8,362 nt of DNA from a virus (Duplodnaviria; Heunggongvirae; Uroviricota; Caudoviricetes). The translations under genes and the position numbers were made by a program. Positions within the stretch are counted from its first letter, which is position 1, and each line of letters opens with the position of its first letter. Below are positions 62-7,394 of this stretch, one piece after another. Under the pieces are notes generated by a model that saw nothing but the letters and a program-made list of their open reading frames with translations, was not told where the DNA came from and ran no database searches. The stretch spans positions 1 through 8,362 of the IMG/VR virus record IMGVR_UViG_2675903621_000020; one strand, 5' to 3'.

Positions 62-1449
62 TTATAGCCTTTCAGGGCATATTTGGTTTGTAGCGACGAA
101 ACCAGTGATTTCACTTCTCCTGACTTCCCTGTCACGGGGTCTGTCAGGGTCAGGCGAACCAGTTCTTTTTTGCGATATTCCAGAACGATGTTGTTGTTGC
201 GATCCACCAGATCAAAACGGCTGCCTGCAAGGCTACGCCGTGCATCGACTTCATTCGGGTCAAGCTGTTTCTGCATCGCGCTTCCAGGTTGCCAGGTAAA
301 ATCGACGGCAAAACGGGTGTCATTTTCGCCCTGTTTACCCTAGCGTTGCTCCGCGCTGAAGGTCATCAGCGGGAAGGGGGTATAGTTAAGTCCAGCGGTT
401 ATGGCATGAGGATTACTTTGCCGATCATCTTTATCGAACAGGGCCACTTCATCGCCATAATACTGTTCATAGACCAGTTTACCGCCAAGGTGCGGCCAGG
501 CGGGTAGCCAGCCTTCTGCGCGTACATCCCAGCCATTGGCCGGGCGTGCTTCATAATCGTTGTCCAGTTCAGGTGCGCTGCGCCAGTTGGTCAGTCGCAA
601 ATAGCCGTTACTGCTTAATTTTAGATAGTCGCGCCAGTACTCCGCGCCAATGCCGGCGCGGGAGTGGTAACGGCTAAGATCGTGGTCGAAAAAGAAGTTG
701 ATGCCCGACATCCATGTGGGAGTGAAATGACGCCAACCCAAGCCGTTGTTAATCTGCGTACGCTCGTCAGTACGATGGAGAGTATGCTGACTGAAAAAGA
801 GATTATCAGGCGTTTCATACCACGGATGGAGAAAATCGAACTGGGAGTTCTTCAGGCTAAAATCTTCATCCACGCCCAGCGTGATTCTTGCGGTACCGAA
901 GCGGCTTAACCAGTCTGTCATTGCGCCTGAAGCCTGAGAAGAGGCCCATCCACGCGCCATATTTGCCGCTTGCTCGCTGTTCATATCCTCGGCGAGCAGA
1001 GACCCGATTTGCTGTGAAGTACTGGCTATCTGTTGCTCAAGGTTGCCACTGCTATTACCCGGTGGCGGGGTTAAATTATTTTCACTAACTTGTGCCGGGA
1101 CATCCAGTTCATCACCCTGGCGGACATTATCAAAACCTCGAGCAAACGTACGAAACTGGTTGAGTTTGCGTAACTCAGCCACCGAAATACCGAAACGTTC
1201 GGCAACGCTTTGGGCCGATTCCAGCGCTCCAAGGGTGTAGGGCACCGTATTGGCATTTGCAATGGCAATTTGTGTAGGAACTGGTTGTTGGGTTGCGGCG
1301 TTTACCACACCTTGTGCTGCCGCAGCCATAGGGAACACAAGTTGAGTTATCAGGCAGATACCCGCAGTTAAGCGGCGTAGTTTAATTCCCATCCCGCATA
1401 AGATTTGTCGGTCATTTATTTCTTCTCCACTTCTCTTCTTCGTAGCCAT
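62..1449 (-). pseudogene. yeeJ: 5' portion of an intimin/invasin-family inverse-autotransporter adhesin gene (yeeJ-like), interrupted by an in-frame TAG and truncated by the IS
   Basis: Minus-strand ORF 340-1524 in the track. ATG at 1449 has a GGAAGG Shine-Dalgarno 5 nt upstream (alternative ATG at 1476). Long signal-peptide-like N-terminus (…LTAGICLITQLVFPMAAAAQG), LysM-like segment (FGISVAELRKLNQF), then a Trp/Tyr/Gly-rich beta-barrel-like region. An in-frame TAG (plus-strand cta at 340-342) stops the frame, which resumes in the same frame to the IS junction at 61/62. Synteny with tRNA-Asn and mtfA matches my memory of E. coli K-12. Confidence 0.7.
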
Positions 1450-1646
1450 GCTTACCTTCCCTGAACGAGCTAACATAAATGCGCCCTTTCTAGCACAGCG
1501 AAAAAATGTAAATCCTGATAGCAATATGATTGAAAATTAATAACTTTTCGTTAGGCAGTTTTGGATGTGAGTTGCAAGAGGGGAGACTACTGAATAACTC
1601 AAGTTTTATAATCGAGGGGAAAATGGTGATGGCGTTCATAGCAAAA

Positions 1647-1762: not shown

Positions 1763-1838
1763 TGGCTCCTCTGACTGGACTCGAACCAGTGACATACGGA
1801 TTAACAGTCCGCCGTTCTACCGACTGAACTACAGAGGA
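1763..1838 (-). tRNA. asnT: tRNA-Asn (anticodon GUU), 76 nt with encoded CCA
   Basis: Reverse complement reads TCCTCTGTAGTTCAGTCGGTAGAACGGCGGACTGTTAATCCGTATGTCACTGGTTCGAGTCCAGTCAGAGGAGCCA. 7-bp acceptor stem, anticodon loop CT-GTT-AA, T-loop GGTTCGAGTCC. The asnT name is assigned from position between mtfA and yeeJ. Confidence 0.93.
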
Positions 1839-1938: not shown

Positions 1939-2736
1939 TTAATGAACATTCGTCGCCGAAAACGAGTCTGTATCATTAGCGTGATGCAGTCTCTGCAAAG
2001 GATCTTGTTGATAAAATTGGCAGAAACGTTGCCACAATGAAGGGAAACGAGGAGCAAAAAGTTCTGGGGCGCTAAAGAAATATTCAGAAAGTACGGCAAA
2101 ACATTCAGCAGGATCACTGGCAGCATAAGCATCAATGCTCGCCGCATTCTCGCCAACCAATTCGATTTCTTCCTGAATGTTGTTCATTGCAGCATGAAGA
2201 TCGTGTTCCCAGCCAGCAACCTCACGCAACGGAATAAAGGGAACTCCGCTGGCGCGATCGCCGTTACGGGTGTCCAGCTTATGAGCGACTTCATGAATAA
2301 TCAGGTTAAAACCAGAAGCATCAAAAGAATCTTGTATATCCAACCAGTTCAAAACGATAGGCCCTTGCTGCCAGCTCTGACCTGACTGAACAATACGTTG
2401 GTTATGCACCAGACCGATATCGTCTTCCCATTCATCATCGACCACAAATGGCGCAGGATAAATTAAGACTTCATGAAAACCATCCAGCCATTCCAGTCCT
2501 AACTCCAGAACGGGTAGGCAAAATAGAAGTGCTATCCGGCAGCTTCTTAATGAATCCAGTTCAAAGCCCTGTAAAGGAACAAGCCGCTTTTGCTGTAAAA
2601 AACGTTCGGCAAGAGTGACTAATTTGCTTTGTTCCTGTTCCGTCAGACACGTTAAAAGGGGGATCGATAGTGCTTCCTGCCAGGGAAGGGCAGTTTGATG
2701 TGCTGATTCTTGTACTTTCCAGGGCCACTTAATCAT
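1939..2736 (-). CDS. mtfA: MtfA (Mlc titration factor A), zinc-metallopeptidase fold, 265 aa
   Basis: ORF with ATG at 2736 (the track ORF extends to a GTG at 2775). Protein begins [28 protein letters not shown] and contains the HExxH motif ([10 protein letters not shown]). Stop TAA at 1939-1941. Recognised from memory as MtfA/YeeI. Confidence 0.9.
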
Positions 2737-2829
2737 CGTTTTGCTCGCAAACTCGTCACTTGAACAAAATTGCACGGACAGGGACTGTTAAAATGCCAAA
2801 TTTCCTGGCATCATGGCAACCATCTGAAC

Positions 2830-2919
2830 GGAGAGATGCCGGAGCGGCTGAACGGACCGGTCTCGAAAACCGGAGTGGGGGCAACTCCACCGGGGGTTCA
2901 AATCCCCCTCTCTCCGCCA
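2830..2919 (+). tRNA. serU: tRNA-Ser (anticodon CGA), 90 nt with long variable arm and encoded CCA
   Basis: GGAGAGATGCCGGAGCGGCTGAACGGACCGGTCTCGAAAACCGGAGTGGGGGCAACTCCACCGGGGGTTCAAATCCCCCTCTCTCCGCCA. 7-bp acceptor stem GGAGAGA/TCTCTCC, anticodon loop CT-CGA-AA, T-loop GGTTCAAATCC. The serU name is assigned from anticodon and position beside mtfA. Confidence 0.9.
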
Positions 2920-2998
2920 AAATTCAATCACTTACACGCCATCAAGTCAGTGATAAAAATCACACTTGGAATTACTTGGAATATTTTGTTGGAATATT
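2920..2998. other. Candidate prophage attL arm between the tRNA-Ser 3' end and the int 3' end
   Basis: The integrase reads toward the tRNA 3' end, the standard tRNA-integrated prophage layout. Three direct repeats (C/G)TTGGAAT(A/T)T at 2965-2972, 2975-2982 and 2989-2995 lie where lambda P' arm-type Int sites would be. An ATCACT-N16-AGTGAT inverted repeat (2926-2953) with an IHF-like ATCAA element lies between them and the tRNA. The core cannot be delimited without attR or an empty site. Confidence 0.4.
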
Positions 2999-3997
2999 CT
3001 GGGGTAAAGGTACATCCAGTGTAGGTGAGATCTTCACTTTCCTGTCATAGATTAATACCTGTCCTTCGGTCTTGTGACCAGAGAAAAGTTGTTTATCCCG
3101 GCTACTACCTTCGTAATCTGATATCCCCTTGGCTTTAAGGTCATGGAACGTAAAATCGGTGGCGATCCCAGATATCTGTCCTGCTAAATTTCTTGCCTCA
3201 ACCCACATTTCATTAAATCCTTTATACATGTAACGGTTGCCGTACTGATTGCTGATTACATAGGCCGACTTGGGGAGTTGTTTGGCTTTTTCTATAACTG
3301 ATTGCAGGCGGGGGCTCCAGGCTTTTATCTGTTTCTTTCCTGTTTTACCTTGCTGGATAAAGATCCCATCGTTTCCGATCTGTTCCCATTTCAGAGATAA
3401 CACATCGGAAATCCTTGCTGCGCACAGATATGCAATTTCCATCGCGATAAAAACAGGCACAGGAGCCACGCTTAATACGGCCTGGTATTCTTTGTCAGTC
3501 ACATAGCGCTCTCGGTTTTTTGCCTTGAATTTACTTACACCGGCACAAGGATTAGCCTTTACATACCCTCGTTCATACCCCCAACTATAAACGCGCGACA
3601 TACTGCTTTTTTCATGGTTTGCCTGCGTTTTACTCTGCTCGCCTCTTTTGTCCATGTATCGTCTGATGTGCTCTGGTTTTACAGAATCGGCCAGCACCTT
3701 ACCGAATACGGCCAGCAACTTTTTTTGATGTTGCAGATAATCTTTTTGAGTTCTAGGACTAAGCTCGCTGTAATAGGCGCTGGCGAGAAATTTTTCCCAC
3801 AAACGCCCAAATGTCATTGCGCGATCGCGATGGTTAACCGTTTCTTCATACTTTTTCCATAATGCGGCTAAACCATCCTCGATTGCAGTTAAGGTTACAG
3901 ATTCTCTGGATGTCGGTTTCCATACATAACTATATTTATTGGGGTATACCTTTGGCGGTAATTTTTCGTGTTCGGGATTTTTCCTTCGTCTTCCCAT
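2972..3997 (-). CDS. int: Lambda-family tyrosine integrase, 341 aa
   Basis: ORF with ATG at 3997 and TAA at 2972-2974. N-terminus MGRRRKNPEHEKLPPKVYPNKYSYVWKP resembles the lambda Int arm-binding N-terminus (MGRRRSHERRDLPPNLY…, from memory). C-terminal catalytic region has HDLK and GHK…Y elements (FTFHDLKAKG…LFSGHKTEGQVLIYDR). Confidence 0.92.
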   Translation of the reverse strand: MGRRRKNPEHEKLPPKVYPNKYSYVWKPTSRESVTLTAIEDGLAALWKKYEETVNHRDRAMTFGRLWEKFLASAYYSELSPRTQKDYLQHQKKLLAVFGKVLADSVKPEHIRRYMDKRGEQSKTQANHEKSSMSRVYSWGYERGYVKANPCAGVSKFKAKNRERYVTDKEYQAVLSVAPVPVFIAMEIAYLCAARISDVLSLKWEQIGNDGIFIQQGKTGKKQIKAWSPRLQSVIEKAKQLPKSAYVISNQYGNRYMYKGFNEMWVEARNLAGQISGIATDFTFHDLKAKGISDYEGSSRDKQLFSGHKTEGQVLIYDRKVKISPTLDVPLPQNIPTKYSK

Positions 3998-4258: not shown

Positions 4259-6676
4259 TTAAAAATCAGCCTGACTCGGGATCAGTTTTTGCCAGATGGC
4301 TGAAACGTATTTTGCCTGGTAACGCGCATCGTGCAGGGCGTTATGGCGTTCACCTTCGAATGGAATAGTCGTTCTTGCGTCGAAATCCATCACCAGTCCC
4401 AGAGCAACCATCGTTCTTACATCGCGATCATTGGTGTAACGCCACGGGCAGGGGATCCCCTGCCGTTCATATGAACGGCGTAAAATCACGTTGTCGAAAG
4501 TTGCACCGTTACCCCAGACCTGAACAAAAAATTCACCGGAGTTTTCGTCGATAAATTCCCGTAATTGCAGCAGTGCATCATCCAACGGGATTTCATCGGT
4601 CAGAATGGAGGATTGTGCTTCGCGTGACTGTTTCAGCCACCACTTAATGGTGTCCCGATCGATGACCCCGCCTGCGGTTTCCAGATCGATAGTTTTGCTG
4701 AATTCTGGCCCCATATCTCCGGTTGCCGGATCAAAAAACTTACCGGCTATAGCGTTTATTGGCGCATCAGGATTTTTTCCCATTGCTTCAAGGTCAATCA
4801 TCAGATGGTGCCACAACCTGCTGGTGGATGAGATTTCATGATGACCGTTCACTTTAATTAAGGGATTTGCTGTTTCGCCAGTTTTATTATCGCTGGCGTG
4901 ATACTGATCGCTGCCAGTGTTCTCCTTGTGCAGATGTTCAGTGCCTTCCATTTCCTCCGGATCATTTTTCTGAGCTTCAGCCTGATTCTCTTCATCGAAT
5001 GTTTCCTGGTAGGTTGCGTTCCCCATCACCGCACTACAGTCAGGACAGTTGCCGCCACCGGTCTGACCACATGTGGTGCAAACTTTTTCTGGTTCTTGTT
5101 GCACTACTGGTTCTGGTTGTTTTGTTTTTGGCTCGTTTTGTAACGCATTTGGGCTGTTTTGTTCCGCTTTATCCTGATTCTGGTCATCATCATCGCGACT
5201 CTGGATCCCCTTCACCCATTTTGGATCATTCGGGTCGCTAATCCCTTCAACAAATTCTCCGCGAGAAGCAGCCAGTAATTTATCTGCATCGACAGGATTT
5301 TTGGGTGGAATGTTTTTCTTGGCTTCATGGAGTTCTGCACGCAGTTTCTGATATTTCGCATCAACAGAATTTATCTGTGGCTGAGCATCCATCGACTGCG
5401 TGTCCTGATTATGTTCAGTTGTATCCGGTTCCACTGCTTCAGTCGTTGCCTGTTCATCTGCCATTGCGCCAGATGGCTGCGGTTTTTCTTCATCATCCTG
5501 TTTTCCTTCTTTTGTTACACGCTGCGGCATCGGGGCAGAGGAGCGGCCACAGGCAATATCCACGATTTCCGGATCAGGGGTGGCATGATCGGTTTCAGTC
5601 AGCACCTTATTCAGGTATTCGGTGACACGGTGGGGAGTAGCCTCTATACCAATTGGTGCTTCTTTCACGGACGCAACCACGATGGCGCGGGAGTAATCCT
5701 TGTGGCCCGGCATGGTGATGAATTTGCTGAAAAACACAGTAAATGGCGGTTTATTTTCAGCGATAATTTCCTCAATGCGTTTAGCGTGTGCGGGATGAAG
5801 GTTATAAATATCCACGTCCATTGAACGGGCCAGTACGCCAGTGGCTACGTCACGCGCCACTGACGCATCATCGTGGACAAAACCTTCGCCGCGATCGGTA
5901 AGAATGCCGCCGCCAGCGTTAGCGCCGGATGGCGTGCGGCTGATGCGTGAAACACTATTTCCTTTCATCCACTCTTTTGTAAGCAGACCGCGATCGGTGT
6001 AGTCAGCGCCCAGGTATGCTTCGATAAAAGAGGTCATCAGTCCCAGGTCCGAATTTACGGGGGCGGGGAAAACTTTGTCAGTGTCTCGCACCAGTTTGTA
6101 CAAATCCCGAATCTCCAGCGGTTCGAGTTGCACTGCTTTATTTGAGATGGCCAGCGCGGTAACGGCGGGAAGTTTTTCATCCTGTGCGTTATGTAATGCG
6201 CGCAGTTTGTCCAGTGAAACGTGCGTGACCGGTTTTTCGCTGTTGTGTTGCGCCAGCCAGCGAACAGGCAGAATCTGACCTGAAACCGGAAGAAGCATAT
6301 TCTCCTCAATCTTAGCCATGTCTTCGCCGTTGACGTTGGTATTGTCAGTACTGGCTGGTTTGTCCGGAACAGAGGGCGCGATAAGTATCATTGTGATACC
6401 ATCTTCTCCGCCTTTTTCGTATCGGTTGCAGAATTCAGTATCAAACACACCTTCCGGTGGAAGGTCATTCACAACGGGTAAATGGACGCGGATGGGTTTT
6501 TTAAAATCCTCTTCGTCAAATCCGGCATCGTCCATTGCAGCAACACCGCGTGATATTGCAACCGATAATTTTTTTGCTGTGCGCCAGTAAAAACCACCTT
6601 TAATCCCAAGGCGTTTTCTGACTTTGTCATTTTTGGCTTCGTAATATAGTGCAATTTCTTCTTTATCAGCGTTCAT
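4259..6676 (-). CDS. 805-aa multidomain prophage protein: N-terminal domain of unknown function, acidic disordered linker with a CxxC-x7-CxxC knuckle, C-terminal DEDDh (DnaQ-like) 3'-5' exonuclease domain
   Basis: ATG at 6676 with a GAGG Shine-Dalgarno 7 nt upstream; TAA at 4259-4261. The C-terminal ~185 aa carry motifs in canonical order: Exo I DxE (MIDLE, res. 628-630, or TIDLETAGG, 664-666), Exo II ([13 protein letters not shown]728), Exo III H-x4-D (HNALHD, H778/D783). Residues ~385-620 are D/E/Q/P/K-rich low complexity containing C533-x2-C536-x7-C544-x2-C547. Confidence 0.85.
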
Positions 6677-6768
6677 TGATAAACCTCATAACCATTTTAA
6701 GGATGAACAAATTCCTGCCATTGCTGGTATTTTTAATCCGTTGGTATGGCGTTAATATGGCTGGAGGG

Positions 6769-6957
6769 TTATCCAGCCGGTATTTCGTTATTCAGGTTCA
6801 GCGACACTTTTTTTAACGGGAGGCATTCACCGGGGATTTTTTGTTCGTCCCTTACCTGAATGCAGGATGACTTACTGTCATAAATTCCGGTAATTACATT
6901 CTGCGGCTCACCCGTTATAAGAAAAACGGTCATCACCAGTGCAAATGCTGAGGTCAC
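6769..6957 (-). CDS. Small hypothetical protein (62 aa) with a hydrophobic N-terminus, coupled to the upstream small ORF
   Basis: GTG start at 6957 overlaps the upstream stop as GTGA. GGAG Shine-Dalgarno 5 nt upstream. N-terminus MTSAFALVMTVFLITG is signal/TM-like; two Cys. Stop TAA at 6769-6771. A 54-aa variant would start at ATG 6933. I recognise no homolog. Confidence 0.4.
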   Translation of the reverse strand: MTSAFALVMTVFLITGEPQNVITGIYDSKSSCIQVRDEQKIPGECLPLKKVSLNLNNEIPAG

Positions 6958-7142
6958 TGCTGTTCTCCGAAAATACCAAGTTCAAGAAGAGCAATTCGGG
7001 AAAGTATGGAATTATCATTGAGCAGATAAGGCTCATATTTCCGCATATTAATGGCATCCTCAGTAAACGCTTTATTACTGAGCAGAACACCAATATCAAA
7101 ACAACCTTCAGACGTATTAACGTTTGGTAATAACGTTTCCAT
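6954..7142 (-). CDS. Small hypothetical protein (62 aa), first gene of the leftward operon
   Basis: ATG at 7142 with a strong Shine-Dalgarno GAGGA 7 nt upstream (minus strand …TTGAGGACGCGATA-ATG). Protein METLLPNVNTSEGCFDIGVLLSNKAFTEDAINMRKYEPYLLNDNSILSRIALLELGIFGEQQ. Stop TGA at 6954-6956. The track ORF extends upstream to a GTG at 7247 with no ribosome-binding site. Confidence 0.5.
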   Translation of the reverse strand: METLLPNVNTSEGCFDIGVLLSNKAFTEDAINMRKYEPYLLNDNSILSRIALLELGIFGEQQ

Positions 7143-7159
7143 TATCGCGTCCTCAACAA

Positions 7160-7307
7160 TGAATTTTGTGATGCAGTGCCTGGTGCCTCCAGGTGACGTT
7201 AACCAGTTAACAATTAACGCCGGATACAGAGAATCCACCCATAACACTGTTTTTGGTTTTAACTGTTCCGCGTGCGCTTAGCCGCATTCACCGCATCACA
7301 AAATTCA
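7160..7307. repeat. Perfect 15-bp inverted repeat pair flanking a 118-bp segment next to the leftward operon start
   Basis: TGAATTTTGTGATGC at 7160-7174 and its reverse complement GCATCACAAAATTCA at 7293-7307 (17 of 18 with one flanking base each side). The left arm abuts the Shine-Dalgarno of ORF 6954-7142. The enclosed segment contains GTTAAC-ca-GTTAAC-aa-TTAAC (7198-7218). Confidence 0.6.
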
Positions 7308-7394
7308 CTTTAAAAAGGGCGGCAGAGCAGTCACGGAGTAAAACTGATACCGCCAAATGTCACCAGAAAATTGATAACAGAGGGCGTTGTAGCG

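What the first reader, a model, noticed from the sequence alone, without database searches (positions are those of the whole stretch)
6769..7142. Two 62-codon ORFs coupled by a GTGA overlap at the head of the exonuclease operon
The upstream ORF has a near-ideal Shine-Dalgarno. The downstream ORF starts with GTG overlapping the upstream stop, has its own GGAG, and a hydrophobic signal/TM-like N-terminus. They occupy the position that kil/cIII-type small host-interaction genes take in lambdoid early-left operons, but I cannot assign either to a known family. A small soluble protein plus a small membrane-associated protein ahead of a nuclease is also a common layout for toxin/immunity or exclusion modules.
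Basis: partly seen in the sequence, partly recalled or inferred. Interest (0 to 1): 0.45.

Follow-up and report, generated by a model that had tools for sequence, protein, structure and literature searches.

The report
Prophage dicB and ydfD gene pair
The two small overlapping genes are real, but they are the already known prophage pair dicB (a cell-division blocker) and ydfD (a lysis protein), here as a diverged version common in pathogenic E. coli, so the finding is ordinary.

Summary
On the minus strand, a 62-codon ORF (7142..6954, ATG) and a second 62-codon ORF (6957..6769, GTG) overlap in GTGA, and each has its own Shine-Dalgarno. The upstream ORF is DicB (Pfam PF05358, E 5.7e-37; NCBIfam 113.8 bits against a cut-off of 100). 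The downstream ORF is DUF1482, the family of the K-12 Qin lysis protein YdfD (E 2.8e-15). The DicF sRNA lies 175 nt upstream of the dicB start (7368..7317, 77 bits). Gene order matches the K-12 Qin dicBF operon: dicF, dicB, ydfD, exonuclease, int. The window is 100% identical to E. coli O55:H7, where RefSeq already names both genes. Across 14 alleles both frames stay open, the ATGA or GTGA overlap is kept, and dN/dS is 0.05-0.43. The pair sits inside a repressor-controlled early operon, not at its head. The kil-like and exclusion ideas are right in spirit: per K-12 literature, DicB blocks division through MinC, excludes phages that enter via ManYZ, and suppresses YdfD lysis. This allele is 63% and 48% identical to the tested K-12 proteins, so its activity is inferred. 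Already known; low interest.

The parts
7317..7368 (-). DicF small RNA gene, upstream of the pair in the same transcription unit
   Evidence: It matches Rfam RF00039 at 77 bits (gathering score 48, E 3.7e-16) over the full model, positions 1-52. It differs from K-12 dicF at one base.
7143..7316 (-). dicF-dicB spacer and leader, containing the dicB Shine-Dalgarno GAGGA at 7154-7150
   Evidence: It is about 99% identical to the K-12 Qin dicF-dicB spacer. GAGGA lies 7 nt before the ATG. The open frame extends upstream to a GTG at 7247.
6954..7142 (-). dicB homologue (62 aa), a cell-division inhibition protein of the DicB family
   Evidence: Pfam PF05358 scores E 5.7e-37, 125.7 bits, covering 1-62 of 62. 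NCBIfam NF049927 scores 113.8 bits against a cut-off of 100. It is 63% identical to K-12 DicB with no gaps. RefSeq names it dicB, WP_000449169.1. dN/dS is 0.05-0.41.
6965..6968 (-). GGAG Shine-Dalgarno for the downstream gene, inside the 3' end of dicB
   Evidence: It lies 7 nt before the GTG. A GGAG or AGGA is kept at this place in all 14 alleles compared.
6954..6957 (-). GTGA start/stop overlap (translational coupling junction)
   Evidence: The overlap is read directly. All 14 alleles have either ATGA or GTGA at this position. K-12 has ATGA.
6769..6957 (-). ydfD homologue (62 aa), DUF1482 family; the K-12 member is the Qin lysis protein YdfD
   Evidence: Pfam PF07358 scores E 2.8e-15, 56.4 bits against a cut-off of 25. 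phrog_1092 scores E 1e-32. It is 48% identical to K-12 YdfD with no gaps. RefSeq lists it as WP_000199480.1, DUF1482 family protein. dN/dS is 0.16-0.43.
6758..6779 (-). GC-rich hairpin spanning the ydfD-like stop codon
   Evidence: The fold is GGCUGGA-UAACCC-UCCAGCC at -13.6 kcal/mol, z = -3.06 against shuffles. It is kept in window-type alleles and absent in the K-12 type. Its role is unknown, and there is no U-run on the sense strand.
4259..6676 (-). Downstream exonuclease gene (context, the next gene of the operon)
   Evidence: It carries the Pfam Exonuc_VIII N-terminal region plus a C-terminal Rv2179c-like 3'-5' exoribonuclease domain. This is the same position as the ydfE remnant in K-12 Qin.

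Best explanation
The two ORFs are the dicB and ydfD genes of a Qin-like (dicBF-type) early operon. The operon belongs to a lambdoid prophage integrated at tRNA-Ser next to mtfA in E. coli O55:H7. Shown here: family membership, synteny, intact frames and purifying selection. Inferred from K-12 work: the operon is silent while the DicA-type repressor is bound. [quoted passage not shown] YdfD is translated by ribosomes that terminate dicB and restart at the overlapping GTG. [quoted passage not shown] Through the same MinC interaction DicB also disables ManYZ, which blocks DNA entry of lambda-type phages. YdfD causes lysis of dividing cells, reportedly by binding and inhibiting IspG of the MEP isoprenoid pathway. 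Because DicB stops division, it holds YdfD lysis in check indirectly rather than by binding YdfD. The window carries a diverged allele of both proteins, so equal potency and identical targets are assumed, not demonstrated.
For: Both ORFs match their families above the curated cut-offs. DicF lies upstream. Gene order is colinear with K-12 Qin: dicA, ydfA, dicF, dicB, ydfD, exonuclease remnant, int. The window is 100% identical to O55:H7 genomes, where RefSeq annotates dicB and a DUF1482 protein at these coordinates. The dicF-to-dicB-codon-17 stretch is about 99% identical to K-12. DicB residues 3-15, which fall in the N-terminal 13-14 residues reported essential, are identical to K-12. L5 is kept. 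The only change, K2E, is at a position where K2A, K2G and K2R stayed active (PMC4967827). YdfD-family invariant residues F5, L7, V11, G16, C32, E38, Q39, C45, P47, P60 and A61 are all present. Across 14 alleles both frames stay open and the 4-nt overlap and internal SD are kept. dN/dS is 0.05-0.43 in the annotated frames, while the other two same-strand frames give ratios of 1.0-1.6. The window-type allele covers at least 80% of the query in 1019 of 5426 complete E. coli genomes. The K-12 mechanisms come from PMC6832061, PMC8835842, PMC10448788 and PMC4967827. Indirect antagonism is supported by three points: SulA also blocks YdfD lysis, locus L018 combines window-type DicB with a K-12-type YdfD C-terminal half, and non-Escherichia DUF1482 genes have no DicB partner.
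Against: No experiment on this allele was found in the papers searched. After about codon 20, DicB is only 52% identical to K-12, and its net charge is -5 against +3. K-12 deletions of the last 12-20 residues weakened activity. The YdfD homologue lacks the residue equivalent to K-12 L63 and has T2 instead of N2. In K-12 the deltaC1, L63A, deltaN1 and N-terminal point mutants all lost full lethality. The IspG mechanism itself rests on one study without enzyme kinetics, as the authors state. An antisense gene lies between the ydfA homologue and dicF (7684-8199 +), so read-through from the repressor-controlled promoter has not been shown for this prophage. Single-sequence structure models were too poor to use.
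Confidence: 0.9

Rival explanations
1. The pair is a cognate toxin/immunity (type II toxin-antitoxin-like) module. The upstream small protein would neutralise the downstream toxic protein by direct binding.
For: The gene order (protector upstream, toxic gene downstream), the 4-nt overlap and the small sizes all resemble type II TA pairs. In K-12, DicB co-expression prevents YdfD lysis.
Against: SulA, an unrelated division inhibitor, also prevents the lysis, so the protection comes from division arrest. The alleles are not tied to each other: L018 carries window-type DicB (88% in the C-half) with a K-12-type YdfD C-half (85%). In Klebsiella, Enterobacter, Leclercia, Kluyvera and Buttiauxella the DUF1482 gene follows small ORFs of two other families and no DicB. 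DicB is itself toxic, which is not antitoxin behaviour. DicB shows no DNA-binding domain in Pfam. Neither protein hits PADLOC.
Confidence: 0.05
2. The DUF1482 protein is an envelope-directed single-gene lysis protein, like the small phage proteins that block cell-wall precursor steps. It would be anchored or exported by its hydrophobic N-terminus, and IspG would not be its physiological target.
For: The hydrophobic N-terminus is conserved across the family (F5, L7, V11, G16 invariant). Two invariant cysteines, C32 and C45, could form a disulfide outside the cytoplasm. Lysis that needs ongoing division is typical of inhibitors of wall synthesis. The IspG evidence lacks kinetics.
Against: The hydrophobic run is only 13-16 residues, has no K/R before it and ends in Glu-Pro. 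That is short for a membrane span and atypical for a Sec signal (using my own rough scales, not a trained predictor). Lu et al. report pull-down, SEC, ITC and FRET with IspG, rescue by ispG overexpression or HMBPP, and no effect of Cys mutants on IspG binding.
Confidence: 0.12
3. The two ORFs are decaying, functionless leftovers of a defective prophage, or chance ORFs.
For: ORFs of about 60 codons are common by chance in this window. In K-12 the same operon sits in a cryptic prophage with a pseudogenised exonuclease and integrase.
Against: Both frames are intact in all 14 alleles. dN/dS is well below 1 only in the annotated frames. The region is present in 4646 of 5426 genomes. Here the neighbouring exonuclease, xis-like gene and integrase are intact. 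Inducible or complete phages carry the same pair.
Confidence: 0.02

Closest known systems
DicB of the E. coli K-12 Qin cryptic prophage (Pfam PF05358; NCBIfam NF049927)
   Same: It has the same length (62 aa), aligns without gaps and is 63% identical. Residues 3-15 are identical, and these fall in the N-terminal segment needed for activity and full MinC binding. It occupies the same position after dicF and before ydfD, with the same leader and Shine-Dalgarno.
   Different: The C-terminal two-thirds is only 52% identical and the net charge is reversed (-5 against +3). Residue 2 is K2E. A recombination breakpoint lies at about codon 17-20. MinC/ZipA-dependent division arrest and ManYZ exclusion have not been tested for this allele.
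YdfD lysis protein of Qin (Pfam DUF1482, PF07358)
   Same: It is colinear and 48% identical. All family-invariant residues are present, including both cysteines and the EQ motif. It has the same 4-nt overlap with dicB and the same position ahead of the exonuclease.
   Different: It uses a GTG start instead of ATG. It is one residue shorter: it lacks the equivalent of L63, whose removal weakened K-12 YdfD. It has T2 instead of N2, and its C-terminal half has net charge +1 against -3. Lysis and IspG binding are untested for this allele.
Lambda Kil and other prophage division inhibitors
   Same: It is a small protein of an early, repressor-controlled leftward-type operon that stops host cell division when the prophage is derepressed.
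   Different: There is no sequence relationship: the only Pfam hit is DicB. DicB acts through MinC rather than directly on FtsZ.
Type II toxin-antitoxin pairs
   Same: It is a two-gene cassette with overlapping small genes, in which the upstream product prevents killing by the downstream product.
   Different: The protection is indirect, since any division block works. The partners are exchangeable. The upstream protein is itself toxic and has no DNA-binding domain.

Membership tests
DicB (PF05358 / NF049927) | Full-length match to the family profile above the curated cut-off | tested here: met
   Pfam gives 125.7 bits against a cut-off of 27, covering 1-62 of 62. NCBIfam gives 113.8 bits against a cut-off of 100.
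DicB (PF05358 / NF049927) | Intact N-terminal segment (first 13-14 residues, L5 critical) that K-12 mutagenesis found essential | tested here: met
   Residues 3-15 are identical to K-12 and L5 is present. K2E falls at a position where K2A, K2G and K2R remained active (PMC4967827). This was tested by sequence only.
DicB (PF05358 / NF049927) | Location in a dicBF-type operon: after dicF, before ydfD, under a DicA/DicC-type immunity region | tested here: met
   DicF lies at 7368..7317. The O55:H7 record shows an HTH repressor, a Cro/CI-type gene and a ydfA homologue (DUF1391) upstream, colinear with K-12.
DicB (PF05358 / NF049927) | MinC-dependent inhibition of cell division, and MinC-dependent inhibition of ManYZ | not testable with these tools
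   This is known for the K-12 protein only (PMC6832061).
YdfD / DUF1482 (PF07358) | Match to the family profile above the curated cut-off | tested here: met
   Pfam gives 56.4 bits against a cut-off of 25, covering 4-61 of the protein on 1-57 of 57. phrog_1092 gives E 1e-32.
YdfD / DUF1482 (PF07358) | Family-invariant residues (F5, L7, V11, G16, C32, E38, Q39, C45, P47, P60, A61) | tested here: met
   All are present in an 8-sequence alignment spanning Escherichia and Klebsiella phage homologues.
YdfD / DUF1482 (PF07358) | Terminal residues that K-12 YdfD needs for full lethality (N2 and L63). This is a determinant of activity, not of family membership. | tested here: not met
   The window protein has T2 and ends at ...IPAG with no equivalent of L63. 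K-12 deltaC1, L63A and N-terminal mutants survived induction (PMC8835842). This lowers confidence in equal lytic potency, not in homology.
YdfD / DUF1482 (PF07358) | Division-dependent lysis on induction; binding of IspG | not testable with these tools
   These are K-12 data only.
Type II toxin-antitoxin module | Cognate pairing: toxin and antitoxin co-inherited and specific to each other | tested here: not met
   L018 is a recombinant of the two allele types. DUF1482 genes in five other genera have non-DicB upstream partners.
Type II toxin-antitoxin module | Antitoxin with a DNA-binding domain that autoregulates the operon | tested here: not met
   DicB has no Pfam hit other than DicB. In K-12 the operon is regulated by DicA from a promoter upstream of ydfA.
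Sec signal peptide or transmembrane anchor (N-terminus of the DUF1482 protein) | Basic n-region followed by a hydrophobic core, or a hydrophobic span of about 19 or more residues | tested here: inconclusive
   There is no K/R in residues 1-28 before K29. The hydrophobic run is 13-16 residues and ends in Glu-Pro. The summed insertion energy for the best 19-residue window is unfavourable. The scales were entered from memory and no trained predictor was available.
Lambda Kil / cIII | Sequence membership in those families | tested here: not met
   Pfam, PHROGs and NCBIfam return only DicB and DUF1482 families for the two proteins.

The most novel reading that the evidence does not exclude
The diverged allele carried here is found in about a fifth of complete E. 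coli genomes, including O55:H7, O157:H7, O26, O103 and ST131. It may not be functionally equivalent to the K-12 pair. Its DicB has a recombined, charge-reversed C-terminal two-thirds, which could redirect the MinC complex to other membrane proteins and so change which phages are excluded. Its YdfD lacks a terminal residue needed for full lethality in K-12, so it could be attenuated or have another target. More broadly, DUF1482 genes are always translationally coupled to a small upstream ORF drawn from at least three unrelated families. That could mean a general 'brake plus lysis protein' cassette, in which the unknown partners (phrog_22279/31129 and phrog_3722) are new division inhibitors.
Probability: 0.12. 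Interest if true: 0.4.

Novelty: already known. Interest (0 to 1): 0.1.

Why it matters
It matters little as a discovery. The locus, both families, their overlap and their interplay are published for K-12, and the identical proteins are already named in RefSeq for O55:H7. The useful outcome is a correction. The region should be read as dicF-dicB-ydfD inside a repressor-controlled early operon, not as unassigned ORFs heading an exonuclease operon. A modest open point remains: all functional work used the K-12 alleles, while many pathogenic lineages carry this 63%/48%-identical variant, often in several prophage copies. Whether it blocks division, excludes phages and lyses cells in the same way would bear on prophage-host physiology in EHEC and EPEC strains.

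Tried and rejected
1. Chance ORFs: rejected by the family E-values and by dN/dS with alternate-frame controls.
2. Structure: neither protein has a solved relative. Only two chance-level matches appeared, at E about 0.5. Single-sequence AlphaFold2 models gave mean pLDDT 51 for the YdfD-like protein and 57 for DicB, too low for fold searches, so none was run. An alignment-based model would have needed the large protein-database search.
3. Defence-system libraries: no PADLOC hit for either protein.
4. RNA structure at the coupling junction: the 90 nt around the GTG fold no better than shuffles (z = 0.39). There is therefore no evidence for a start site masked by structure.
5. Experimental evidence for this allele: the UTI89 filamentation screen (PMC6206680) covers a dicB-ydfD region whose ydfD is annotated at 192 nt, the 63-aa K-12-type length. 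I did not align it. It was taken as giving no test of the window type.
6. The primary paper on YdfD lysis (Masuda et al. 2016, PMC5975272) is not held. Its results are cited only as reported by PMC8835842 and PMC10448788.
7. A full-text search for 'DUF1482' found no papers.
8. An intrinsic terminator after ydfD: the hairpin at 6758-6779 has no U-run on the sense strand. The scan flags it only on the opposite strand.

Full report
**Observation**

The finding's coordinates hold two ORFs on the minus strand.
- The upstream ORF runs 7142..6954. It starts with ATG and encodes 62 aa (METLLPNVNTSEGCFDIG...), ending in TGA.
- The downstream ORF runs 6957..6769. It starts with GTG and encodes 62 aa (MTSAFALVMTVFLITGEPQ...).
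- The GTG start (6957-6955) overlaps the upstream TGA (6956-6954), giving GTGA.
- GAGGA lies 7 nt before the ATG, and GGAG lies 7 nt before the GTG.

ORFs of this size are frequent by chance: the window has 57 ORFs of at least 40 aa. The case that these are genes has to rest on other evidence.

**Identity**

The upstream protein matches the whole Pfam DicB profile: PF05358, E 5.7e-37, positions 1-62 of 62. It also passes the NCBIfam DicB model at 113.8 bits against a cut-off of 100.

The downstream protein matches Pfam DUF1482: PF07358, E 2.8e-15, 56.4 bits against a cut-off of 25. It also matches phrog_1092 at E 1e-32.

An Rfam scan finds the DicF small RNA at 7368..7317 on the same strand, at 77 bits against a gathering score of 48. 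That is 175 nt upstream of the dicB start.

The 821-base region is 100% identical to seven complete genomes, six of them named E. coli O55:H7. RefSeq annotates exactly these two genes there as dicB (WP_000449169.1) and a DUF1482 family protein (WP_000199480.1). In strain CB9615 they are followed by an exonuclease, a DUF4224 xis-like gene, an integrase and tRNA-Ser next to mtfA.

**Context**

K-12 Qin has the gene order dicC, dicA, ydfA, ydfB, ydfC, dicF, dicB, ydfD, ydfE (an exonuclease remnant), intQ. There, dicB and ydfD overlap by 4 nt and ydfD is annotated as 'lysis protein'. The O55:H7 prophage is colinear with this. The one difference is a 171-aa gene on the opposite strand (window 7684-8199), which takes the place of ydfB and ydfC.

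The pair is therefore in the middle of a dicBF-type operon, not at the head of an exonuclease operon. In K-12 this operon is one transcript from the DicA-repressed promoter upstream of ydfA, and no internal promoter was found (PMC10448788).

**Relation to the characterised proteins**

The window DicB is 63% identical to K-12 DicB. The DUF1482 protein is 48% identical to K-12 YdfD. Both alignments are gap-free.

The DNA alignment shows a sharp mosaic boundary.
- From dicF to about codon 17 of dicB, the two sequences are 97-100% identical.
- From there through ydfD, identity drops to 33-67%.

K-12 has ATGA where the window has GTGA, so homology supports the GTG start.

**Is it under selection?**

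I collected 13 further alleles from E. coli genomes and phages. Their nucleotide identity to the window in the diverged part ranges from 94% down to unalignable.

- Every one of the 14 alleles, counting the window, has both frames open, an ATGA or GTGA overlap, and a GGAG or AGGA ahead of it.
- Nei-Gojobori dN/dS against the window is 0.05-0.41 for dicB and 0.16-0.43 for ydfD.
- Pooled pN/pS is 0.36 and 0.52 in the annotated frames. In the two other same-strand frames it is 1.0-1.6.
- Other frames on either strand are not consistently open across the two allele types.

The dicF-dicB region occurs in 4646 of 5426 complete E. coli genomes, with a median of 2 places per genome. The window-type allele covers at least 80% of the query in 1019 genomes.

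**Mechanism (from the literature on the K-12 proteins)**

- DicB binds MinC. The complex is taken to the septum through ZipA and depolymerises the FtsZ ring, so cells filament.
- The same MinC interaction is needed for DicB to inhibit ManYZ. That inhibition blocks DNA entry of lambda and other ManYZ-dependent phages, and also blocks growth on mannose (PMC6832061).
- The N-terminal 13-14 residues of DicB are essential. L5 is critical, residue 2 can be substituted, and the last 8 residues are dispensable (PMC4967827).
- The window protein is identical to K-12 at residues 3-15 and differs only by K2E.
- YdfD lyses cells on induction. The lysis is prevented by co-expressing dicB or sulA, so it needs ongoing division.
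- YdfD binds IspG, shown by pull-down, SEC, ITC and FRET. Lysis is relieved by ispG overexpression or by HMBPP (PMC8835842). That paper's Figure 7 even aligns a YdfD from E. coli O55:H7.

**What is inferred rather than shown for this allele**

- After residue 20 the DicB allele is 52% identical to K-12, with net charge -5 instead of +3.
- The YdfD allele ends one residue early: it has no equivalent of L63. It also has T2 instead of N2. In K-12 the deltaC1, L63A and N-terminal mutants lost full lethality.
- Equal potency and identical targets are therefore assumptions.

**The toxin/immunity idea**

The layout resembles a type II toxin-antitoxin pair, but the evidence points to indirect antagonism.
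- SulA substitutes for DicB in blocking the lysis.
- Locus L018 combines a window-type DicB with a K-12-type YdfD C-terminal half.
- A scan of representative genomes found DUF1482 genes in Klebsiella, Enterobacter, Leclercia, Kluyvera and Buttiauxella.
- In those genera the upstream gene is not DicB. It is one of two other small-ORF families of unknown function, phrog_22279/31129 with an ATGA overlap or phrog_3722 with a TGATG overlap. There is no DicF either.
- Neither protein is in PADLOC.

**The N-terminus of the DUF1482 protein**

The N-terminus is hydrophobic and conserved: F5, L7, V11 and G16 are invariant. But the run is only 13-16 residues, has no basic residue before it and ends in Glu-Pro. 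It is neither a textbook signal peptide nor a textbook membrane span. Lu et al. assign IspG binding to residues 1-28. With two invariant cysteines also present, an envelope site of action cannot be fully excluded. I keep it as a minor rival.

**Dead ends**

- There are no solved structures for either protein.
- Single-sequence AlphaFold2 models were of low confidence, pLDDT 51 and 57.
- The coupling junction has no unusual RNA structure.
- The primary YdfD lysis paper is not held.

**Verdict**

They are the known dicB-ydfD pair of a Qin-like prophage operon, already annotated as such in the source genome. Novelty: already known. The only open point is whether this widespread diverged allele behaves like the K-12 one.

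Noticed in passing
window 7684-8199 (+): A 171-aa gene (RefSeq hypothetical WP_000559930.1; phrog_1244, function unknown) lies antisense inside the dicBF-type operon, between the ydfA homologue and dicF. K-12 has ydfB and ydfC at that place. I read a C-terminal CxxC...CxxC motif in the translation, and several weak coiled-coil family hits cover the N-terminal part. It has no credible Pfam or PADLOC match. Convergent transcription could affect read-through to dicF, dicB and ydfD.
   Followed up: partly
window 6758-6779: A 7-bp GC-rich hairpin (GGCUGGA-UAACCC-UCCAGCC) has the ydfD-like stop codon in its loop. It folds much better than shuffles (z = -3.06). It is kept in window-type alleles and absent in the K-12 type, and no U-run follows on the sense strand. 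It could be a processing or stabilising element, or a module boundary.
   Followed up: partly
window 6683-6727 (minus strand): A stretch of about 45 nt just upstream of the exonuclease start (CCAGCAATGGCAGGRATTYGTTCAYCCT..AAA...ATGAGGTT) is nearly invariant across both allele types, although the sequence on either side diverges. It contains a small GCCA-GCAA-UGGC hairpin and a weak promoter-like match.
   Followed up: partly
window 7085-7095 (about codon 17-20 of dicB, minus strand): There is a sharp mosaic breakpoint inside dicB. Upstream of it (dicF, the leader and the DicB N-terminus) the sequence is 97-100% identical to K-12. Downstream it is 33-67% identical. The functionally essential N-terminus is thus shared between otherwise different alleles.
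   Followed up: yes
window 4259-6676 (-): The 805-aa 'exonuclease' combines a RecE/ExoVIII N-terminal-like region with a C-terminal Rv2179c-like 3'-5' exoribonuclease domain, not the RecE nuclease domain. It falls below the NCBIfam exodeoxyribonuclease VIII cut-off (1036 against 1269 bits, matching only model positions 1-602).
   Followed up: no
L007, L008, L025-L035 (positions about 1300-1700 of each locus): In Klebsiella, Enterobacter, Leclercia, Kluyvera and Buttiauxella prophages, the DUF1482 gene is translationally coupled to small upstream ORFs of two other unknown families. One is about 40 aa ('DFAR...LAQKGNPE', phrog_22279/31129, ATGA overlap). The other is 66 aa ('GRAVPMR...AAWLVSFDY', phrog_3722, TGATG). 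There is no DicB or DicF.
   Followed up: partly
L014, L015, L018 (positions 1-433): In some E. coli prophages a Rha-family regulator gene ends 10 nt before dicB. L014 and L018, the two of these loci that were scanned, have no DicF. The dicF-dicB linkage is therefore not universal even in Escherichia.
   Followed up: no
L003, L005, L021 (dicB-ydfD region, antisense frame): In several K-12-type alleles one antisense frame is completely free of stop codons over the whole 377-nt dicB-ydfD region (125 codons). This is not so in the window-type alleles. It may be chance.
   Followed up: no
window 340-1524 (-), 1763-1838 (-), 1939-2775 (-), 2830-2919 (+), 2972-3997 (-): The chromosomal context is the start of a large Ig-like-domain adhesin pseudogene (internal stop, per RefSeq), tRNA-Asn, mtfA, then tRNA-Ser next to the integrase at the edge of the prophage.
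   Followed up: partly
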